Below are positions 50,381-62,001 of a stretch of DNA of 64,000 nt, in pieces (within the stretch, counting starts at the first letter, position 1; each line of letters begins with the position of its first letter). Below the pieces are notes generated by a model that did not search any database, was not told the origin of the DNA, and saw nothing but the letters and a program-made list of their open reading frames with translations. The DNA is taken from IMG/VR virus record IMGVR_UViG_3300020450_001133. One strand, given 5' to 3'. Source of the DNA: a virus (Duplodnaviria; Caudoviricetes). Position numbers and translations under genes: made by a program.

Positions 50381-51763
50381 TTATATGTCATTTTTCTTCA
50401 TAAACTCACGCATGTTTAAAGCAGTATTGATTGTGCTCTTGTTATCATCGTCTTCTGCTTTAATACTGTTACCTCTTTTTAGTTGGTCTATTAGGTTAGA
50501 AGATTGCATTGTCATTGCTTCTTCCTCATCTTCATCTAAGTCTTCTACTCTCAATGTATCAGGATTAAACTTCAAGTCTACTTTACTGCCAACACCACTA
50601 CTAGAACGTGTTTTCATAAACTGTATTTGATATCTACCACGTTCTCTCATAGCATTACTGGTAAATATGCCCACAACATTGTCAGCAGTTTGTATTTTAC
50701 TAATACCACCTGCAATATGGTGGTGGTCAAATTCTATTTCTTCTACTGCACCTCTGTTCAACTGCGATGCAGTTACAAACAATGTGCCTGTTTCCATTGC
50801 TAAATTACGCAATTCTTCGGACACATACTTGTCTTTAATAAACAAATCACCTGGACTTACTCTTGCACTAATAGGACTCATTAAATCCAAGTAGTCTACA
50901 AGTATTGCATCTACTTTAACTTCTGTGTTTATTTCATATTCTCTAACAAATGCCCTTATATCGTTAGCAGTTACACCACTAGCCATTTGTTTTACCCTAA
51001 ACTTACCAGCACCTTTACCTTTCATACGCACTTTTAAGTCCACATCATCCATGTTTCTCATAATCTCTTTTGTGCTATATTCACTAACCATAGCATCAAG
51101 ACGCATACTAATTAATTGTTCACTTAATTCTAAACTAATATAAACTACATTAAGTCCTGCTAAACTCCAGTTCACACCTAAGTTTTGTAAGAATAAACTT
51201 TTACCTGCACCACTACCACCAGCAAAGATTGTAATCTCTCCTCTGTTTAGTCCACCATACAGTTTTTGGTCAAACTTTTTCCAACCTGTGCTTACTGCAC
51301 CTGCTTGACTCTTAATGTATTGTAATCTTTCTTTTGGATTTTCAAAATACTCTAGTCCTAAGTCTTTGACTAAACTTACTTGACTTGCATCTTTAATTTT
51401 ATTTTCAACTGCACCATAATCTGCTTTTTCTAACAAGTCTGTGCTATCAAGTATTGCCTTTTCCAATGCTTTGTGTCTACAAAATCTTTCAAAACTATCT
51501 AAAAACCATTCTGTATGATTTTCAGTTATGCCTTCAATACGTTCTAGTTCAACACCTGTTGTTGCAGTTATTTGGTCAATAGTAGGAATACTGCTATACT
51601 CAGTACTATGTTGTTTTAAAAATGTAACTGTGTCTTGATATTTTCTATTAAACATGTAAGGTTCAACAATATTGTTTACCCTAACAAACAGTTCAGGGTC
51701 AGAAACAAGAAACTTCAAGAACATTTCTTGTATTTCTTCTGTGTATTCTGTAATATTATCCAT
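50381..51763 (-). CDS. dnaB: Replicative DNA helicase (DnaB/T4 gp41-like)
   Basis: Walker A GGSGAGKS, SLELSE, VDYLDL, TASQLNR, KTRSS. Confidence 0.93.
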   Translation of the reverse strand: MDNITEYTEEIQEMFLKFLVSDPELFVRVNNIVEPYMFNRKYQDTVTFLKQHSTEYSSIPTIDQITATTGVELERIEGITENHTEWFLDSFERFCRHKALEKAILDSTDLLEKADYGAVENKIKDASQVSLVKDLGLEYFENPKERLQYIKSQAGAVSTGWKKFDQKLYGGLNRGEITIFAGGSGAGKSLFLQNLGVNWSLAGLNVVYISLELSEQLISMRLDAMVSEYSTKEIMRNMDDVDLKVRMKGKGAGKFRVKQMASGVTANDIRAFVREYEINTEVKVDAILVDYLDLMSPISARVSPGDLFIKDKYVSEELRNLAMETGTLFVTASQLNRGAVEEIEFDHHHIAGGISKIQTADNVVGIFTSNAMRERGRYQIQFMKTRSSSGVGSKVDLKFNPDTLRVEDLDEDEEEAMTMQSSNLIDQLKRGNSIKAEDDDNKSTINTALNMREFMKKNDI

Positions 51764-51768
51764 GCTTA

Positions 51769-52629
51769 CTAATTATCCTCTAATAATTCTCTGTTTACAA
51801 TTTCTTTGTACAGTTCTGTTGCAATACGTTTATGTCCTTTATCGTTTGGGTGCATATCATCTGCACTAACAACATTTCCTGCCATCATGGCACTGAATGG
51901 GTACATAGTCCATCTTTTTCTGTCTATCATATCTCTTAATTGTATTAAAAATGTATTTGGTTTTGTGTTTAATACATTCCACACATGGTCAATACCTCCT
52001 GTAGGTCTTCCCATATGACATATACTAGACATTGATGAAAACAAATATGGTATATTTTTATTACTTAAAAAGTTTTGTATTAACAAAATGTCTTTACAAT
52101 AATTAACCATAGTTTGATGATGATTCATCAAATATGCTTGATACATCTGCGATGCTACTTTAATATTTTTATAATATTCTGTTTGATAACCAAATTTTTC
52201 TGTAATAGTTTTATCGCCATGAGCTTCTCTGGCTTCATGTGGTATCCATACAAGTGGGTGACCAAATTCATCTAATGCCGTGTCTTGTGTTCTTGCTTGG
52301 GCATCATTAACTGAATTTGTAGGTACAAGTCCAAAATACTGACTCCAGTCATCATTCCAAAATTCATATCTAAATGGTGATGTCCATTGTATAACAACTA
52401 AGTCTGGATTATGTTTTCTAACACCTTCTATTGTGGTTCTTGCTATTCTATTGTTACTGCCTCCGCCAAAGCCATAATTAATTGTTTCAATTTTTCCATC
52501 AAAAAGTTCTTCTAGCCTAAAGGGCCAAACATATGGTTGAGGTGGATTAGTTTCTCCTGTGAGGTAATTTTGTACCTCACCGTGTCCATGTGTAAAACTA
52601 CATCCATTTACTAAAACTTTTTTAGTCAT
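51769..52629 (-). CDS. SGNH/GDSL-like hypothetical protein
   Basis: LVNGCSFTHG, GGSNNRIART, DDMHPNDKGH (DxxH). Confidence 0.65.
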   Translation of the reverse strand: MTKKVLVNGCSFTHGHGEVQNYLTGETNPPQPYVWPFRLEELFDGKIETINYGFGGGSNNRIARTTIEGVRKHNPDLVVIQWTSPFRYEFWNDDWSQYFGLVPTNSVNDAQARTQDTALDEFGHPLVWIPHEAREAHGDKTITEKFGYQTEYYKNIKVASQMYQAYLMNHHQTMVNYCKDILLIQNFLSNKNIPYLFSSMSSICHMGRPTGGIDHVWNVLNTKPNTFLIQLRDMIDRKRWTMYPFSAMMAGNVVSADDMHPNDKGHKRIATELYKEIVNRELLEDN

Positions 52630-53603
52630 AACATTTTTGCCTTAACTTGATTCTTTATTTTATTATCACTTGCAAATTTAACAATACTTGCAAGTGTCAG
52701 TAACTTACCATATTTATTCACTGCATCAGCGGCATCTTTACATTCATTGCTCCAAGGTGGAAAACTTATTTCCCAGCCTAATTCTATTGCTTGGTCAATT
52801 AAGTCTTTACCAGCACTATCTCTATCAGGACATAATATAACACGTTTGTTAAGTTTGTCTATTAGATGTGCTTGTTCTGGTGTAACACCATTTCCTAAAA
52901 CACTTATACCATCTATAAGTATTGCATCAAATACACCTTCAACTACAACAACGAAATCTCTGTCGTTGTCTACAAATTTGTCTATGTTAAACACATAACC
53001 ACTTTGCATATTTAACAAATATTTTGCAGTTTCTTTGTTAGGTGGATTTATATGTCTGCCTGTCCAACCAACAAGTTCATTGTTATATAAAAACGGAACA
53101 ACCAATCTTGCATTGTACATACTATTATTAATATGCAATAGAGGGTAGTTGCCAAACAATCCACGTTCAATTGCATACTGTTTAACTTTGTGGTCGTCGG
53201 GTAAATTATCTACAAATTGTGTGTCCTCTGGCAAATCAACTTTTTTAAAGTTTGCCGCACTATACACATAATCATCTGTTTCACTTCTGTCTAATGCATC
53301 ACCATGTTTCATCAGATTCAAGACAACTTTGTGTATATCACTAGTGGATACACCCAACGACTCTACAAGTTTTTTGTATTTGCCGCCTAGTTTAGGGGAC
53401 GGTGCCCAGCCTGTTGTATAACCGCAATTAAAACAATGATAACTTATTTTAGAATTGCTTTGTATTACACCACCACGTTTTCTTTTATCACTACATACTG
53501 GACAATTAAATGTAGTCCAGCCACTAGGAGTTTTGCCTGCATTGATAGGCAAATTGTCCATTAGTAATCTGTGTACTTCGTCAACTAGTTCATGATGATG
53601 CAT
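52626..53603 (-). CDS. DNA primase (T4 gp61-like)
   Basis: Zinc finger CPVC..HCFNC; TOPRIM motifs VVEGVFDA and PDRD. Confidence 0.9.
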   Translation of the reverse strand: MHHHELVDEVHRLLMDNLPINAGKTPSGWTTFNCPVCSDKRKRGGVIQSNSKISYHCFNCGYTTGWAPSPKLGGKYKKLVESLGVSTSDIHKVVLNLMKHGDALDRSETDDYVYSAANFKKVDLPEDTQFVDNLPDDHKVKQYAIERGLFGNYPLLHINNSMYNARLVVPFLYNNELVGWTGRHINPPNKETAKYLLNMQSGYVFNIDKFVDNDRDFVVVVEGVFDAILIDGISVLGNGVTPEQAHLIDKLNKRVILCPDRDSAGKDLIDQAIELGWEISFPPWSNECKDAADAVNKYGKLLTLASIVKFASDNKIKNQVKAKML

Positions 53604-54453: not shown

Positions 54454-54507
54454 AAATTAATACCATCTTTGTCTAGTATTTATCATATGTGTTTATAAAT
54501 ATCTTAG

Positions 54508-54879
54508 ATGACTAAACATGAAGAACTACAAGAAAAGTTTCCTTTCCTCACAGGTATAGAATTTTCACAAGAAGAATTTGTAGGTATAGTACAAAATAAA
54601 GACGCACAAATATTAAGTTTTTACGATATAGAGAAGTGTAGAAACGATGAGGAAAAGAAAGTATTATTAGAATTAGGTGATTTATGGTGGTGGGAAAGTA
54701 ACAGATTATTACCCATAGATGTTTTTTTATTTCAAGAAATGCAAGAATTTAGACATTGTTTAAGAACTTTTGTACTAAAAGAGACTGAAGTATTGTTTGG
54801 TCCTGTAACAAGTATGCAAAACATACTTAAGAAAAGAATAAAAAGAAGAACAGTACAACTAGTTAAAAAAATAGATTAA
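54508..54879 (+). CDS. Hypothetical phage protein
   Basis: KFPFLTG..WWWESNR; ATAAATA-N6-ATG; isolated plus-strand gene. Confidence 0.7.
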   Translation: MTKHEELQEKFPFLTGIEFSQEEFVGIVQNKDAQILSFYDIEKCRNDEEKKVLLELGDLWWWESNRLLPIDVFLFQEMQEFRHCLRTFVLKETEVLFGPVTSMQNILKKRIKRRTVQLVKKID

Positions 54880-55445
54880 CCTAATTTTTCAACCATTAAA
54901 TTTAATTGAACACAAATTGCAGTAGCATAGCCAATAGCATGACTGCGTTTAAAGAAGTAATCATCTGTTTTTGTCCAAACATCTTTTTCTACTTCCTCCC
55001 AACTCTTTCCAACCAAATATCTTTTACCTGGTCTAATCATTGCTAATATCATTGCTAACTGTTCTACACTTGTAGGCTTGTATTGTTTAACAATATCATA
55101 ATGATTGTTTATATGGAATAGTTTTTCTACTACTTCTTTGTGTTCAAATAGTTCCCATAAAGGTTCTGTTGCTAACAGTTTATCAAGATGTGTTTCATTT
55201 TTGATACCTTCATATATGTGATTATTTAGAAAGTCAACTTTAAAATAACCCATCTCTTCTGCTTCTTTATGGTCTATTGTGCTGTATCCTTCAATTGGAA
55301 AACTTGGAATAGGTTGAAAGTAGACACCAGTATTGTGTTTATCAAACACATCTTCTTTTTTAATACTCGCAGGTATATGCTCAACAAGTTCTAAAAACTT
55401 GTTTCTGTCTGCCATATCTATGTCTACGTCAAAATTAATCTTCAT
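54876..55445 (-). CDS. Minimal DNA polymerase III alpha (DnaE, C-family)-like protein
   Basis: DVDID, HNTGV, GYFKVDFLN, LAMIRPG, FKRSHAIGYA correspond to DnaE PDIDID, HAGGV, KFDFLG, ALYRPG, FNKSHSAAYA. Confidence 0.8.
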   Translation of the reverse strand: MKINFDVDIDMADRNKFLELVEHIPASIKKEDVFDKHNTGVYFQPIPSFPIEGYSTIDHKEAEEMGYFKVDFLNNHIYEGIKNETHLDKLLATEPLWELFEHKEVVEKLFHINNHYDIVKQYKPTSVEQLAMILAMIRPGKRYLVGKSWEEVEKDVWTKTDDYFFKRSHAIGYATAICVQLNLMVEKLG

Positions 55446-55475: not shown

Positions 55476-55504
55476 ATTATACCTCCAAATACAAACCATG
55501 TCAA
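55476..55504 (-). promoter_or_regulatory. Consensus sigma70-type promoter of the mini-DnaE gene
   Basis: TTGACA-N17-TATAAT. Confidence 0.8.
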
Positions 55505-55524: not shown

Positions 55525-56193
55525 TCAAATGTCTTTTCCTTTAAACTCTTCTGCTAACGGAAATATTTTAGCAATAACATCTGCAACTGCATGAGCAATA
55601 TCAATATGTTCTTGTTGTGTACCATTAGCACCACGTAATTCTATATAATGTATCCAACTTCTTAACGTGCCATTTACATACATTCTGCTGAGTGTATTAC
55701 CTTCTGGCAATACTGCTCTTGCTTGTTCTTTGGCAATACCATTTTCTACTGCCCAAAAGTATGCCGCTCTTGCAGTTCTAATTACATCTTCTTGTGTTTT
55801 TCTCCAAGTGTCAATAATTTCATAGTCTGTGTCACTGTCTGCTGGAATACTGTTTTGTCTATTTTTAGGATCTTGAAATCTTGCTTCTCTAACTTCAAAG
55901 TCTAAATTGTTTGTTGGGTCTGCATAACGTTGGCTGAACTCTTGGAAACTAAAACTTCTGTGTCTTAATATTTGTCTAGCAATATCTCTAGTGGTTTCAA
56001 TTTCTAAACATGCACTTACCATTTCGAGCGGTGACCAATGTTTGTGTTTCATCAAATACTTTACAAGTTTTTCACTTGTTTCTTTATTGTTTTGGTTAGT
56101 AGGATTACTTACCCTGGCACAATATGCCACTAAATCTAATGCTGACTCGTTAAAGTCTGGTGCTTGTGAATGACTTATTAGTTTAACTTTCAC
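55525..56193 (-). CDS. thyX: FAD-dependent thymidylate synthase
   Basis: HWSPLE, ARQILRHRSFSFQEFSQRY, EQARAVLP, LRSWIHYIELR. Confidence 0.97.
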   Translation of the reverse strand: MKVKLISHSQAPDFNESALDLVAYCARVSNPTNQNNKETSEKLVKYLMKHKHWSPLEMVSACLEIETTRDIARQILRHRSFSFQEFSQRYADPTNNLDFEVREARFQDPKNRQNSIPADSDTDYEIIDTWRKTQEDVIRTARAAYFWAVENGIAKEQARAVLPEGNTLSRMYVNGTLRSWIHYIELRGANGTQQEHIDIAHAVADVIAKIFPLAEEFKGKDI

Positions 56194-57100
56194 TTATCCA
56201 ATCTCCTTGTGTTTTTATAAATGTTTCTGCAATTTTTTCGTGCAGTTCTTTTGTGTAATGTGATTTAATTGCGTTAAGATTTTGTTCCTGTCTTATTTTT
56301 AGTAATGCTTCATGCGAACCAAATACATCTTTACTCATATCCCATGTGTCAAACATCTTTAAATTTTTTGCAAGTGTATTCAAAGACGTTAATTCAGGCA
56401 TGTGATGTACAAATTTTAATTTTATATTTTTTTCATCACACACTTTTTGTATTAATGCAAGTGTTCCAAAGAACCTCATAACATGACTGTATATTGGCAG
56501 TCTAAATACTTCTTCTAAATCATTTGGGCCTGCAGTATAATTTGCCCATGAGTCATATTTGTCAAATTTGTATATACGTTCTTTTTTATATCCACGTGGT
56601 TTTGCTTTATCATCTGCACCTAACATAGATACCCAAACCAAATTACCTTGTCTTGCATTTTCTTTAGAAGTATTAGGTAGCCATTTTAAAAACCAATCAT
56701 CAAATTCTTGTTCAGCAGTTGGTTTGGCGAACAAAGCCTCCATGCCAGGTATGTTGTCATACTCTGATTGATAATGACTTTTAAACCATTCTTCTGTGTA
56801 TTTAATTTTTTGATTACCATTTTGAATATCTTCTGGTAATGCAGGTAATTGTTCTTGGTCTATATTATTATCGTGTAAATGTAAGTGTGTTGCTCTTGTG
56901 ACATAGTATAAACAATGTGTAATACTAGGATCTTCCATAATTCTTCCTATTGTTACATACCCATTTGCTTGTACATCACTAAAAGGAATACCTTCTAGTT
57001 TACATTTAAGACCAAAATGTTCAGCAATTATTTCACCATGATGTTTATGTTCAGGATCTGCAACTGCATAACTATCACCTGCAAACATTATTGTATTCAT
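56183..57100 (-). CDS. SGNH-like hypothetical protein
   Basis: FAGDSYA at the N-terminus and SHY near the C-terminus. Confidence 0.5.
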   Translation of the reverse strand: MNTIMFAGDSYAVADPEHKHHGEIIAEHFGLKCKLEGIPFSDVQANGYVTIGRIMEDPSITHCLYYVTRATHLHLHDNNIDQEQLPALPEDIQNGNQKIKYTEEWFKSHYQSEYDNIPGMEALFAKPTAEQEFDDWFLKWLPNTSKENARQGNLVWVSMLGADDKAKPRGYKKERIYKFDKYDSWANYTAGPNDLEEVFRLPIYSHVMRFFGTLALIQKVCDEKNIKLKFVHHMPELTSLNTLAKNLKMFDTWDMSKDVFGSHEALLKIRQEQNLNAIKSHYTKELHEKIAETFIKTQGDWISES

Positions 57101-57765
57101 AAGTTTGCCTCTTTACATGCTTGTTTTATTTCTCTTACTTCTTCTTTGTTGTTTGCAAATAGTTTCATCCAAAACGGAGGATCTATAAAATCTTTTATCA
57201 TTGCTACTTGCTCATCATTAAATTTTTGCAATAATAAATCTCCTGTTTGACTAAGATATATTACCCACGGACTAATTTTTGCACTTCTTATATCATGTAC
57301 TGCTCTACTAGGAGATACAACTTCAAAATAAGACTGCCAATCTTTTTCTGTTTCTTCACTCCATTTGGAAAGATATACAACTGTTCTTTCTAATGCTCTA
57401 AGTCCTGTTTCTTTTCTCACAAAGTCTTGTATGTATGTGTTGTAAGATTTATCTGCTGTCCATTGTTTTAATTTTACACCTTTAGTGATTAACCACTCTG
57501 TGTACTTTTCTGGTTCTAGCCATTCATTAACTTGACATGCCCTACCATACTTTACAAATGCTTCATAATATGGACTCATTATAAATTCTTCTATTGTCTT
57601 TGGATTCTTTGCACTAGTGTTTATTTCATAAAACATCTGAAATGCTCTGTGGCTTAAACGTATGTGGCTCATATCTCTATCAGTCCAACGTCTTTTCTTT
57701 ACACACATATGAACTGCAAGTGTGCTTTCACTTCTGAACTCTTTGCCACACCATTTGCATTTCAT
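57097..57765 (-). CDS. Phage protein with N-terminal C2HC zinc finger
   Basis: CKWC..TLAVHMC. Confidence 0.65.
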   Translation of the reverse strand: MKCKWCGKEFRSESTLAVHMCVKKRRWTDRDMSHIRLSHRAFQMFYEINTSAKNPKTIEEFIMSPYYEAFVKYGRACQVNEWLEPEKYTEWLITKGVKLKQWTADKSYNTYIQDFVRKETGLRALERTVVYLSKWSEETEKDWQSYFEVVSPSRAVHDIRSAKISPWVIYLSQTGDLLLQKFNDEQVAMIKDFIDPPFWMKLFANNKEEVREIKQACKEANL

Positions 57766-60043: not shown

Positions 60044-60547
60044 CTAGTCTAACAAATATCCAATATCAATCTCTGCTGGAATTTTGTTTGCTTCTTTAAC
60101 AAACATAGCACATCTAGGATCTGCTTTATCTTCCAACGGAGCAAGTAACATGTGTCCATTTTTTAATTTTGGAAAAAACCATTTTACATCTTGAAAAATG
60201 TTAGTAATTTTTACTTCATGGCATTCCAATATTTTACCACTCAAAGGATTTAATGTTGCAGTTAAAAATCCTCTATTGTTTAAACTAGTCAAAGGTATTA
60301 CTTCTATACCTGTTAAATCTTCATCTGTAATTGCTATACTCCAGTCCATAGGCATTTGTATATTGTGTTCGCCTATTTGTAAGCATATTGCAGGTGCGTA
60401 AAAACTCTCTAAAAATATTAGAGGTAAAAAATAGTAATCCATCCACTCAGGATCACTGGTATCGAAAACTCCAAATCTAATGTCATCTACTTCATCAGGT
60501 ACCTGGTCTATTTCATAAACTTCGTTTTCTACTGTTAAAATTTTCAT
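60044..60547 (-). CDS. Hypothetical protein coupled to the helicase
   Basis: ATGA-type overlap with the uvsW-like gene. Confidence 0.65.
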   Translation of the reverse strand: MKILTVENEVYEIDQVPDEVDDIRFGVFDTSDPEWMDYYFLPLIFLESFYAPAICLQIGEHNIQMPMDWSIAITDEDLTGIEVIPLTSLNNRGFLTATLNPLSGKILECHEVKITNIFQDVKWFFPKLKNGHMLLAPLEDKADPRCAMFVKEANKIPAEIDIGYLLD

Positions 60548-62001
60548 TTATACTCCACTTTTGTTACTGTAAACGGAAATCCTTGTTCTTTGTAAAATGC
60601 TTTCCTTTTTGTCAAATGCCTTTTACTGTATTTCAAATTACTTGTAATATCTACAACATGTAGATAATCTTTATCTTCTGCTTTACGAATACCTCTTCCA
60701 ATACTTTGTATAACCCTAACAAAACTTTTGCCAGGCTCAATAAGTACCAAATTAAATATTCTTGGTATGTTAATACCTACTGCCGCCACACCATATGTAG
60801 CAACAATTACTTTGTTATCTGCTTCTGATATTTCAGCATACTCAGACTGTCTGTCTTTAACTTTCATATCTCCGCTGATAAACACCCATTCAGGATTTTT
60901 GTCTACCAGTAACTCACCAGTTGCTAATCTATCAATTAACACCAGTGTATTACCACTACCGCTCAAACCTTTGATGATATCGCTAATGTGACTAACTCTA
61001 TCGTCATCTGTTACAAGCCATTTCAATTCTTGTGCATAGTTATTAAAACCTAATACGCCGTCTTGTAGTTGAAAAATATTAATGTCTAGTTCTGCTAATA
61101 CGCCTCTATCTTGTAATTCTTTACTACTTAGATTTCCTATTACAGGACCTAAACTACATATACAGCCAATTGCTTCATGTTCTTCTTTTGGTATTGTTCC
61201 AGTTAGACCCCAACGTATTGGAACATGTCTAAAAGGACCACTTAAAAGATTTCTTAGCACATCTGCTTTGGCTTTATGTACTTCGTCAACCATAATGCAC
61301 ACAACACCATCGATGAATTCATCAAGTGGAAAATCTGCTTCATAGTTTTTACTTTTCTTTTCTAAAATACTAAGACTTTGCCAAGTACATATTGTATGAG
61401 TTTTGTCATACTCTTTTCTGTCACCAAACAACACACCTACATCAAGACCCAAATTCTTATAGTCTCTTTCAGTTTGTACTACCAAGTCTTTGTTAGGAAC
61501 AATAACAATACTTCTACCATACTGTTCACACATATCGCTTAAGGCGGCGGTTATGAGCGTCTTACCGGCGCCTGTAGCCACCTCCTGTAAACTTTGTGGG
61601 TTCTTTAAAAACTCATTAATAACCTGAACTTGATAGTCCCTTAATATTACAGGCTCTCCTTCAGCAGGATGACCTTTGGGCCACATTGTGTTTTCATATC
61701 TAGTATCAGTTATAGTAGGAAAGTTAAAATTGTAAGGCTGACGTTTGTCATCTATTTCAATTTCATATCCTGCTTTTTGCACAATAGGTATCAGTTTGTC
61801 CAATATGTTCATGTAAGTTCTTCCGCCTATATCACAATACCTAACACAACCATCCCATCTGCCTAATTTATAAGCAGGCATATGATATGCATAAGGTAAG
61901 AAATATTTGGCTTGGTCAGATATTGCACGTCTTGTCTTGACGTCTAAGCCAACGAATTTTACGTTTACTTCATCTCTTATTTCAAGAACACATTTAGCCA
62001 T
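60544..62001 (-). CDS. uvsW: SF2 DNA helicase (UvsW-like)
   Basis: LRDYQ, ATGAGKT, VDEVH, GLTGT, QSIGRGIR. Confidence 0.9.
   Translation of the reverse strand: MAKCVLEIRDEVNVKFVGLDVKTRRAISDQAKYFLPYAYHMPAYKLGRWDGCVRYCDIGGRTYMNILDKLIPIVQKAGYEIEIDDKRQPYNFNFPTITDTRYENTMWPKGHPAEGEPVILRDYQVQVINEFLKNPQSLQEVATGAGKTLITAALSDMCEQYGRSIVIVPNKDLVVQTERDYKNLGLDVGVLFGDRKEYDKTHTICTWQSLSILEKKSKNYEADFPLDEFIDGVVCIMVDEVHKAKADVLRNLLSGPFRHVPIRWGLTGTIPKEEHEAIGCICSLGPVIGNLSSKELQDRGVLAELDINIFQLQDGVLGFNNYAQELKWLVTDDDRVSHISDIIKGLSGSGNTLVLIDRLATGELLVDKNPEWVFISGDMKVKDRQSEYAEISEADNKVIVATYGVAAVGINIPRIFNLVLIEPGKSFVRVIQSIGRGIRKAEDKDYLHVVDITSNLKYSKRHLTKRKAFYKEQGFPFTVTKVEYK

What the first reader, a model, noticed from the sequence alone, without database searches (positions are those of the whole stretch)
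54876..55445. 189-aa minimal C-family polymerase retaining all three catalytic aspartates
Seen: DVD and KVDF aspartates plus the RPG and SHA motifs, in a complete gene with its own promoter. Known: DnaE is over 1000 aa and includes PHP, extended fingers, OB and clamp-binding domains, all absent here. Inference: a stripped-down nucleotidyltransferase near primase and helicase, perhaps for primer extension, end processing or nucleotide signalling rather than bulk replication.
Basis: partly seen in the sequence, partly recalled or inferred. Interest (0 to 1): 0.65.

Follow-up and report, generated by a model that had tools for sequence, protein, structure and literature searches.

The report
Catalytic half of split mini-polymerase
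This small gene of an uncultured marine giant phage encodes the metal-binding half of a very small bacterial-type (Pol III alpha) DNA polymerase whose nucleotide-binding half is a separate gene elsewhere; the two-gene enzyme was described from sequence in 2021 and has never been tested at the bench.

Summary
The 189-aa ORF is real. It lies on the minus strand at 54876-55445. These match E. coli DnaE D401/D403/D405, K553/D555, R639-G641 and S759/H760. In 87 family representatives D6, D8, K69, D71 and P139 are invariant. A confident AlphaFold model (pLDDT 96.5) matches only C-family polymerases (Z 10.1; next unrelated fold 3.4).

It is not a complete minimal polymerase. It starts five residues before the catalytic aspartates and lacks the GRGS triphosphate-binding part of the palm. 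In relatives that part is a separate 170-180-aa gene ending about two residues before the point where this protein begins. The two genes co-occur in about 96 jumbo-phage records, and one natural 375-aa protein has them fused.

This is the C-terminal unit of the "split minimal DNA polymerase III alpha" of group 2.2 jumbo phages (Iyer et al. 2021, PMC7824862). This scan has found it many times on other DNA. This is a new member of a known, biochemically untested kind.

The parts
54876..55445 (-). C-terminal (Mg2+-binding and fingers) unit of the split minimal Pol III alpha, 189 aa
   Evidence: ORF; phrog_11778 E 2.8e-68; AlphaFold pLDDT 96.5; VIA Z 10.1 to Taq Pol III alpha 3e0d_A residues 458-837 and Z 8.7 to E. 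coli 2hnh residues 397-780
55416..55430 (-). DVDID strand (D6, D8, D10), matching E. coli DnaE D401, D403, D405: two of the three catalytic carboxylates
   Evidence: translation; D6 and D8 invariant and D10 >90% in 87 representatives; E. coli numbering; active-site roles from PMC8485763
55233..55241 (-). KVD (K69, D71), matching E. coli K553 and D555: the third catalytic carboxylate
   Evidence: hhalign and hmmsearch alignments; both residues invariant
55026..55034 (-). RPG (R138-G140), matching E. coli R639-P640-G641, a fingers motif
   Evidence: P139 invariant and R138 >90%
54936..54950 (-). KRSHA (S168-H169), matching E. coli S759-H760, the steric-gate helix that contacts the sugar of the incoming dNTP
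   Evidence: hmmsearch second stretch, E. coli 739-769; H169 >90% conserved; role of H760 and S759 from PMC8485763
55476..55504 (-). sigma70-type promoter TTGACA-17-TATAAT (12 of 12), about 30 nt upstream of the ATG
   Evidence: at least 10 of 12 matches at the same place in 22 of 78 related viral contigs
54508..54879 (+). 123-aa convergent gene (phrog_11637, function unknown) whose stop overlaps the C-unit stop; conserved neighbour, probably a late gene and not shown to be a partner
   Evidence: adjacent and convergent in 89 phage records; TATAAATA at 54494-54501
57097..57765 (-). C2H2 zinc-finger protein (phrog_11058, function unknown), conserved upstream same-strand neighbour of the C unit in relatives; separated from it here by thyX and a 305-aa ORF

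Best explanation
The gene encodes the C-terminal unit of a two-protein 'minimal' DNA polymerase III alpha. This unit supplies the three metal-binding carboxylates (D6, D8, D71), the lysine beside the third one (K69), and a shortened fingers domain with the RPG motif and the Ser-His steric-gate helix. The thumb is replaced by a tight beta-hairpin (residues 24-42), and about 90 residues of the fingers are missing. A separate protein of about 165-180 aa, encoded elsewhere in the genome, supplies the first half of the Pol-beta-like palm with the GRGS triphosphate-binding motif. It ends about two residues before the point in DnaE where this protein begins (E. coli N393 | R396). The two chains are inferred to associate non-covalently, without an intein, and so rebuild one active site. 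That site would catalyse templated dNTP addition, without a proofreading, clamp-binding or OB domain of its own. The gene is expressed early from a host-type promoter inside the primase/helicase module. The phage's main replicase is expected to be a family B (T4 gp43-like) enzyme, as in relatives. I therefore think the mini-enzyme most likely has an auxiliary role at the fork or in repair, for example extending primase-made primers before hand-off. Homology, residue conservation, fold, the split architecture in relatives, one natural fusion and the promoter sequence are shown here. Heterodimer formation, catalytic activity, substrate and biological role are inferred.
For: Family membership: phrog_11778 E 2.8e-68 over the full length; 96 jumbo-phage records with 39-53% identical homologues; 1733 clusters in metagenomes. 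Homology to DnaE: a profile of 87 representatives hits E. coli, Thermus and Mycobacterium Pol III alpha structures at E 5e-6 to 1e-4, at E. coli residues 538-641 and 739-769; hhalign pairs K69/D71 with K553/D555 and RPG with 639-641. Fold: pLDDT 96.5; the 16 best Foldseek hits are all Pol III alpha or PolC; VIA Z 10.1/9.9/9.8/8.7 over 183-188 residues against 3.4 for the next fold. Selection: D6, D8, K69, D71 and P139 are invariant, and D10, H37, G40, R138, K166 and H169 are >90% conserved at a mean column identity of 25%. Split partner: phrog_405 positions 362-436 match a separate 169-180-aa ORF in PA5oct-like phage PAC2 and in Phosso, 44 kb and 224 kb from the C unit. All 120 listed N-unit clusters contain GRGS and stop 33-35 residues after it. 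The N unit is in 98 phage records and the C unit in 96, with the same counts for seven of the eight commonest host genera and 10 against 11 for Klebsiella. Natural fusion P0329 (375 aa): N unit, 10-residue linker, C unit. Its model, though only pLDDT 66, aligns over residues 79-375 with Thermus Pol III alpha 293-830 (Z 12.4) and E. coli 275-773 (Z 8.0). Prior description of exactly this architecture: Iyer et al. 2021, PMC7824862, section 3.4.1. Relatives carry a family B polymerase. H760 as steric gate and D401/D403/D555 as the active site: PMC8485763.
Against: The partner N-unit gene is not in this 64-kb window (tblastn, best E 0.49), and the rest of the genome could not be read. Its presence here rests on relatives and on an unverified first-stage note. 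No biochemical or genetic data exist for any member of this family. The enzyme lacks the thumb and all known DNA-duplex- and clamp-binding domains, so templated synthesis on its own may be very weak. The model of the fused form is of low to moderate confidence, so it says little about the interface between the two halves. Pfam's DNA_pol3_alpha model does not reach this protein.
Confidence: 0.85

Rival explanations
1. Stand-alone minimal nucleotidyltransferase: the 189-aa protein alone binds nucleotide and metal and transfers nucleotides, templated or not.
For: All three carboxylates, K69, RPG and the Ser-His helix lie in one well-folded chain with its own promoter. Nearly all homologues are stand-alone proteins of about 190 aa, and a search among longer proteins found only two odd fusions.
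Against: The chain begins five residues before the first aspartate. It therefore lacks the helix-turn with the G[GS] motif that defines Pol-beta-type nucleotidyltransferases and holds the triphosphate (established family knowledge; E. coli GRGS at about 362-365). That piece exists as a separate, strictly co-occurring gene and is fused to this unit in P0329.
Confidence: 0.04
2. The two units do form one enzyme, but it is not a DNA polymerase. It would be a Pol-beta-fold nucleotidyltransferase with another substrate, for example untemplated tailing, RNA ends or a signalling nucleotide.
For: The thumb, duplex-binding and clamp-binding domains are all gone. The Pol-beta fold supports many chemistries, and the weak lower hits to the fused model are Cid1, CCA-adding enzymes, MenT and poly(A) polymerases.
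Against: The fingers elements that read the incoming dNTP in DnaE are retained and conserved: RPG and S168-H169, matching the S759-H760 steric gate. These would be pointless for a non-templated or ribonucleotide substrate. The gene sits in a primase/helicase block conserved across the whole phage group.
Confidence: 0.08
3. Catalytically idle remnant or decoy: a piece of a captured host dnaE kept for binding something, such as a host replisome part or DNA, and not for catalysis.
For: It is very reduced, no activity has ever been shown, and these phages have a family B polymerase that could do all synthesis.
Against: The invariant positions are exactly the catalytic ones (D6, D8, K69, D71) in representatives that are only 30-55% identical to it. 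The parts of DnaE that bind epsilon, beta and tau are precisely those that are missing.
Confidence: 0.03

Closest known systems
Split minimal DNA polymerase III alpha of group 2.2 jumbo phages (Iyer, Anantharaman, Krishnan, Burroughs, Aravind 2021, Viruses 13:63, PMC7824862), C-terminal unit; PHROG phrog_11778
   Same: Same family (E 2.8e-68). Same size, same break point just before the DxD strand, and the same retained Mg2+-binding and template-binding elements. The phage type is the same: T4-related jumbo phage with DnaB, primase and UvsW. The gene block is also the same as in PA5oct-like phages and Phosso: C2H2 protein, C unit, convergent ~120-aa gene, primase, helicase.
   Different: It is at most 53% identical to any cultured-phage member and belongs to a large uncultured marine clade. 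Here thyX and a 305-aa ORF are inserted between the C2H2 gene and the C unit, and an SGNH-like 286-aa ORF lies between primase and helicase. The partner N unit was not seen because it lies outside the window.
Bacterial Pol III alpha (DnaE) and PolC, e.g. E. coli 2HNH/5FKU, Thermus 2HPI/3E0D, Geobacillus PolC 3F2B
   Same: Homologous palm strands and fingers. The catalytic D401/D403/D555, K553, RPG 639-641 and S759-H760 all have counterparts.
   Different: 189 aa stand in for E. coli residues 397-780. The thumb (about 435-510) and about 90 residues of the fingers (about 643-738) are deleted. There is no PHP domain, no residues beyond 780 (finger tip, beta-binding domain, OB fold, tau-binding), and the first half of the palm is on another polypeptide. 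Pfam PF07733 does not detect it.
Intein-split DnaE of cyanobacteria (DnaE-n / DnaE-c, joined by protein trans-splicing)
   Same: A C-family polymerase is encoded as two distant genes.
   Different: There is no intein here. The C unit starts MKINFDVD, five residues before the catalytic strand, and the N units of relatives end ...EFLK directly. That leaves no room for intein halves. From my own knowledge, the cyanobacterial break lies elsewhere in the protein (in the fingers region) and those halves make a full-length DnaE.
Full-size intein-free two-protein DnaE of some marine phages (earlier scan note e1-5857138)
   Same: Reported to be cut between GRGS and the PDIDID strand, the same site as here.
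   Different: There it is said to be the phage's only polymerase and of normal size. I did not check that note.

Membership tests
Split minimal Pol III alpha of group 2.2 jumbo phages, C-terminal unit (Iyer et al. 2021; phrog_11778) | Significant full-length sequence match to the family | tested here: met
   phrog_11778 E 2.8e-68, residues 3-187 against profile positions 5-194 of 197; 96 phage records
Split minimal Pol III alpha of group 2.2 jumbo phages, C-terminal unit (Iyer et al. 2021; phrog_11778) | Carries the Mg2+-binding carboxylates and the template/dNTP-binding fingers elements of Pol III alpha | tested here: met
   D6/D8/D71, K69, RPG and S168-H169 aligned to E. coli D401/D403/D555, K553, 639-641 and 759-760, and conserved
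Split minimal Pol III alpha of group 2.2 jumbo phages, C-terminal unit (Iyer et al. 2021; phrog_11778) | Small stand-alone protein without PHP, thumb, beta-binding or OB domains | tested here: met
   189 aa; the whole model aligns to E. coli 397-780 only; 'longer' search found no regular fused forms
Split minimal Pol III alpha of group 2.2 jumbo phages, C-terminal unit (Iyer et al. 2021; phrog_11778) | A separate N-terminal (GRGS, NTP-binding) unit gene in the same genome | tested here: inconclusive
   Not in the 64-kb window, and the rest of the genome is not held. Present in relatives. Unverified note e1-5319701 reports a 163-aa GxGRGS...EFLK* ORF about 105 kb away in this genome.
Split minimal Pol III alpha of group 2.2 jumbo phages, C-terminal unit (Iyer et al. 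2021; phrog_11778) | Host is a T4-related jumbo phage that also has a family B polymerase | tested here: inconclusive
   The window has DnaB-like helicase, primase, UvsW-like helicase, RNR, thyX and T4-late-type promoter motifs but no family B polymerase among the ORFs scanned. Relatives PAC2 and Phosso have one.
Split minimal Pol III alpha of group 2.2 jumbo phages, C-terminal unit (Iyer et al. 2021; phrog_11778) | The two units associate and polymerise DNA | not testable with these tools
   No experimental data found for any member
Canonical bacterial DnaE/PolC (C-family replicase) | Pfam DNA_pol3_alpha (PF07733) match above the gathering score | tested here: not met
   No Pfam family at E <= 0.1
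Canonical bacterial DnaE/PolC (C-family replicase) | PHP domain, thumb, beta-clamp-binding domain and OB fold in one chain of about 1000 residues or more | tested here: not met
   189 aa; aligned only to E. coli 397-780, with the thumb and the middle of the fingers missing
Canonical bacterial DnaE/PolC (C-family replicase) | Complete Pol-beta-like palm including the G[GS] motif on the same chain | tested here: not met
   The chain starts five residues before DxD. GRGS occurs in none of the 150 C-unit representatives except the fused P0329.
Intein-split DnaE (trans-splicing) | Intein C-fragment at the N-terminus of the downstream half, and an intein N-fragment on the upstream half | tested here: not met
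   Only MKINF precedes the DVDID strand. N units of relatives end 33-35 residues after GRGS with ...EFLK.

The most novel reading that the evidence does not exclude
The two small proteins form the smallest known C-family DNA polymerase (about 360 aa in two chains). It would work as a dedicated early primer-extension or gap-filling polymerase beside a family B replicase, a division of labour like DnaE/PolC in Firmicutes or Pol alpha/delta in eukaryotes. A conserved C2H2 zinc-finger protein encoded just upstream could serve as its DNA-binding accessory in place of the lost thumb and clamp-binding domains.
Probability: 0.2. Interest if true: 0.65.

Novelty: new member of a known kind. Interest (0 to 1): 0.25.

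Why it matters
For this window it settles the annotation: the gene is the catalytic half of a split mini Pol III alpha, not a complete enzyme and not debris. More broadly, the family is abundant in marine metagenomes: 1733 clusters for this unit and 5542 for its partner. It is a core gene of a whole group of jumbo phages, including phage-therapy candidates such as PA5oct and Rak2-like phages. No one has shown what it does. If active, it would define the minimal catalytic core of the bacterial replicase family. It would also be a simple system for studying how a polymerase active site can be assembled from two chains. The single natural fused form found here (P0329, 375 aa) offers a convenient one-chain version for such work.

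Tried and rejected
1. Searching the window's own genome for DnaE pieces failed because no genome is held.
2. tblastn of two N units against the window found nothing (best E 0.49).
3. Megablast of 10 kb of the window against cultured phages found no match.
4. An exact 40-nt match in metagenome contigs found none.
5. Related long metagenome contigs were found (179 kb and 202 kb), but such records cannot be searched or fetched.
8. phmmer of the single protein against PDB sequences found nothing; only the family profile reaches DnaE.
9. MAFFT could not co-align many N and C units on the fused protein (A2, A3, A5 and A6 were misaligned). The fused form was therefore folded with only 11 sequences and gave a mediocre model (pLDDT 66).
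10. I considered the 123-aa convergent neighbour as a subunit and rejected it as unsupported. It is conserved next to the gene, but it has a late-type promoter and no recognisable family.
11. I considered an intein-mediated split and rejected it, because there is no room for intein fragments.
12. Literature searches for any experimental work on this enzyme found none.

Full report
THE OBSERVATION

The window has an ATG-to-TAA ORF of 189 aa at 54876-55445 on the minus strand.
- DVDID at 55416-55430
- KVD at 55233-55241
- RPG at 55026-55034
- KRSHA at 54936-54950

A perfect sigma70-type promoter (TTGACA, 17 nt, TATAAT; 12 of 12) lies on the same strand at 55504..55476, about 30 nt before the ATG. 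Among 78 related viral contigs, 22 keep at least 10 of 12 matches at that place. So the promoter is real for this lineage but not universal. The neighbours are as described: a Toprim primase at 52626-53603 and a DnaB-like helicase at 50381-51763. ThyX lies immediately upstream and a UvsW-like helicase lies at 60544-62001.

WHAT IT IS RELATED TO

Pfam does not recognise the protein, and phmmer against PDB sequences finds nothing. PHROGs places it over its full length in phrog_11778, a 197-position family labelled 'DNA polymerase' (E 2.8e-68). Residues 56-140 also match the DnaE-type family phrog_405 (E 4.7e-7).

tblastn finds homologues of 39-53% identity in 96 cultured-phage records, all of them jumbo phages: PA5oct-like, Rak2/121Q-like, Atu_ph07, Phosso, XacN1, SCTP-2 and others. 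Metagenomes hold at least 1733 clusters of stand-alone proteins of 103-331 aa (the 120 listed are 180-198 aa), mostly marine. No cultured phage is close at the DNA level.

I built a profile from 87 representatives, each standing for a cluster at 50% identity. It hits the solved Pol III alpha structures of E. coli, Thermus and Mycobacterium at E 5e-6 to 1e-4, in two stretches: E. coli 538-641 and 739-769. hhalign gives the same pairing.

With the E. coli sequence read from the K-12 record, the correspondences are:

| This protein | E. coli DnaE |
|---|---|
| D6 / D8 / D10 | D401 / D403 / D405 (by motif and by the family N-termini) |
| K69 / D71 | K553 / D555 |
| R138-P139-G140 | R639-P640-G641 |
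| S168-H169 | S759-H760 |

D401, D403 and D555 are the active-site carboxylates. H760 is the steric gate that touches the sugar of the incoming dNTP (PMC8485763).

CONSERVATION AND FOLD

In the 87 representatives (30-55% identical to the query, mean column identity 25%):
- D6, D8, K69, D71 and P139 are invariant.
- D10, A26, H37, G40, W97, P124, A131, R138, K166, H169 and A174 are conserved in at least 90%.

The positions under the strongest constraint are therefore the catalytic ones.

AlphaFold with this alignment gives a very confident model (pLDDT 96.5, pTM 0.87). The 16 best Foldseek hits are all Pol III alpha or PolC. VIA-align results:

| Structure | Z | Aligned residues | Chain range |
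|---|---|---|---|
| Thermus Pol III alpha ternary complex (3e0d_A) | 10.1 | 187 | 458-837 |
| Geobacillus PolC | 9.9 | 188 | 968-1295 |
| M. tuberculosis DnaE1 | 9.8 | 187 | 416-808 |
| E. coli 2hnh | 8.7 | 183 | 397-780 |
| Next, unrelated chain | 3.4 | | |

So 189 residues stand in for a 384-residue stretch of DnaE. From the sequence alignments, the thumb (about E. coli 435-510) is replaced by a tight hairpin between strands 24-30 and 33-42. About 90 residues between RPG and the steric-gate helix are also missing. Nothing corresponds to the PHP domain or to anything beyond residue 780.

WHY IT IS NOT A COMPLETE ENZYME

The protein starts five residues before the first aspartate. It therefore lacks the first half of the Pol-beta-like palm. 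That half includes the G[GS] motif (GRGS in E. coli at about 362-365), which holds the triphosphate in this superfamily (established family knowledge).

I searched two whole relatives with the DnaE-type profile. In each, a second, separate ORF matches profile positions 362-436. It is 169 aa in PA5oct-like phage PAC2, 44 kb from the C unit. It is 180 aa in Phosso, 224 kb away. These ORFs end ...GVGRGSSVASYVLFLIG(V/I)H(K/R)V(D/N)S..Y.LD..EFL(K/N)*. That corresponds to E. coli ...[33 protein letters not shown]393, while the window protein begins at about R396. The break therefore removes about two residues of a loop.

Further evidence on the N unit:
- It has 5542 clusters in metagenomes, recognised by Pfam PF07733.
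- All 120 listed clusters contain GRGS and stop 33-35 residues after it.
- In cultured phages the N unit is found in 98 records and the C unit in 96. Counts are the same for seven of the eight commonest host genera (Escherichia 34/34, Pseudomonas 11/11, Salmonella 8/8, Erwinia 8/8, Xanthomonas 4/4, Yersinia 4/4, Agrobacterium 2/2) and differ by one for Klebsiella (10 N, 11 C). The surplus N hits include Bacillus phage records, one annotated DNA polymerase III alpha subunit.

One natural protein, P0329 (375 aa), is a fusion: N unit, a 10-residue linker, then the C unit. It was the only fused form among the 150 representatives listed. A dedicated search among longer proteins found only two unrelated-looking fusions. 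I could fold P0329 only with a shallow 11-sequence alignment, so the model is mediocre (pLDDT 66). Even so, residues 79-375 align with Thermus Pol III alpha 293-830 (Z 12.4, rmsd 6.0, 272 residues) and E. coli 275-773 (Z 8.0). The next hits (Z about 3) are Pol beta, Cid1, CCA-adding enzymes and MenT. N plus C therefore equals the DnaE palm plus shortened fingers, starting right after the PHP domain.

PRIOR DESCRIPTION

Iyer, Anantharaman, Krishnan, Burroughs and Aravind (Viruses 2021, PMC7824862, sections 3.4.1 and 3.5) describe exactly this. [quoted passage not shown] They suggest it cooperates with the family B enzyme in synthesis of one strand or in repair.

I confirmed that PAC2 and Phosso carry family B polymerase genes. 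I found no experimental work on the enzyme.

This scan has met the same enzyme many times on other DNA: 40 notes in at least 39 genomes. The follow-up verdicts shown agree with mine.

WHAT COULD NOT BE SHOWN FOR THIS GENOME

The N unit is not in the 64-kb window. The rest of the genome is not held. The sequence is not in the metagenome collection by exact match.

An earlier first-stage note (e1-5319701) reports a 163-aa ORF with GxGRGS that ends EFLK*, 50,728 nt before the window start, about 105 kb from this gene. That wording matches the N units I read in relatives, but I could not check it.

MECHANISM

Shown here:
- homology and the invariant catalytic set
- a confident fold
- the complementary partner in relatives, and a natural fusion
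- an early-type promoter and a replication-module context

Inferred:
- The two chains associate without an intein. There is no room for intein fragments.
- Together they rebuild one active site. The N unit would hold the triphosphate. The C unit would hold the two metals and, through the retained Ser-His steric gate and RPG, the sugar and base of an incoming dNTP opposite a template.
- Keeping the steric-gate histidine in more than 90% of members argues for dNTP-selective, templated synthesis. It argues against RNA tailing or signalling-nucleotide synthesis.
- The enzyme lacks a thumb, a clamp-binding domain, an OB fold and a proofreading partner site, so it should be distributive and dependent on other factors.
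- An auxiliary role next to the family B replicase (primer extension, gap filling or repair) is the most economical guess. It is only a guess.

NEIGHBOURS

Two unknown genes travel with the C unit throughout the phage group.

The first is a C2H2 zinc-finger protein (57097-57765, phrog_11058). It is present in 94 phage records, always just upstream on the same strand. In this window thyX and a 305-aa ORF have been inserted between the two genes.

The second is the 123-aa convergent gene (54508-54879, phrog_11637). It is present in 89 records, always tail-to-tail with overlapping stops. It has a T4-late-type TATAAATA six nucleotides before its ATG, whereas the C unit has a host-type early promoter. 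The pair is therefore probably not co-expressed, and the neighbour is an unlikely subunit. Late transcription may instead run antisense into the polymerase gene.

VERDICT

- This is a new, uncultured marine member of a kind described from sequence in 2021, so its novelty is low.
- The biochemical function of the family remains an open and testable question.

Noticed in passing
window 54508-54879 (+) with 54494-54501: The 123-aa gene of unknown function (phrog_11637) lies tail-to-tail with the C unit, with overlapping stop codons, in 89 jumbo-phage records. Here it has a T4-late-type TATAAATA six nt before its ATG, so it may be leaderless or nearly so. Its late transcript could run antisense through the early polymerase-half gene.
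   Followed up: partly
window 57097-57765 (-): A phage-specific protein with an N-terminal C2H2 zinc finger (phrog_11058) is found in 94 jumbo-phage records, always just upstream of the C unit on the same strand (2 nt apart in PA5oct-like phages). It is a candidate accessory of the mini-polymerase. Its function is unknown.
   Followed up: partly
window 55525-57100 (-): thyX (222 aa, GTG start) and a 305-aa ORF with no family hit sit between the C2H2 gene and the C unit. In PA5oct-like phages those two genes are adjacent, so this looks like a lineage-specific insertion into a conserved block.
   Followed up: no
window 51769-52629 (-): A 286-aa ORF lies between the DnaB-like helicase and the primase, which are adjacent in Phosso and PAC2. 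It has no PHROG hit. Its sequence starts like an SGNH/GDSL-type hydrolase (GCSFTHG near the N-terminus); this is my reading and I did not test it.
   Followed up: no
P0329 (metagenome protein, 375 aa): A natural single-chain form of the mini Pol III alpha: N unit, 10-residue linker, C unit. It was the only fused form among 150 representatives of the C-unit family. It could be an ancestral unsplit state or a secondary fusion.
   Followed up: partly
L002 / record PP408249.1 (PAC2), about 202.9-206.7 kb: The family B polymerase signal in the PA5oct-like phage falls in two separate open frames (825 aa and 379 aa). That polymerase gene may itself be interrupted or split.
   Followed up: no
N units of relatives (L003:1186-1725, L004:1219-1725) and P0329 residues 1-78: The first ~75 residues of the N unit lie before the region that aligns to the DnaE palm. 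They were modelled with low confidence and have no assigned fold or role.
   Followed up: no
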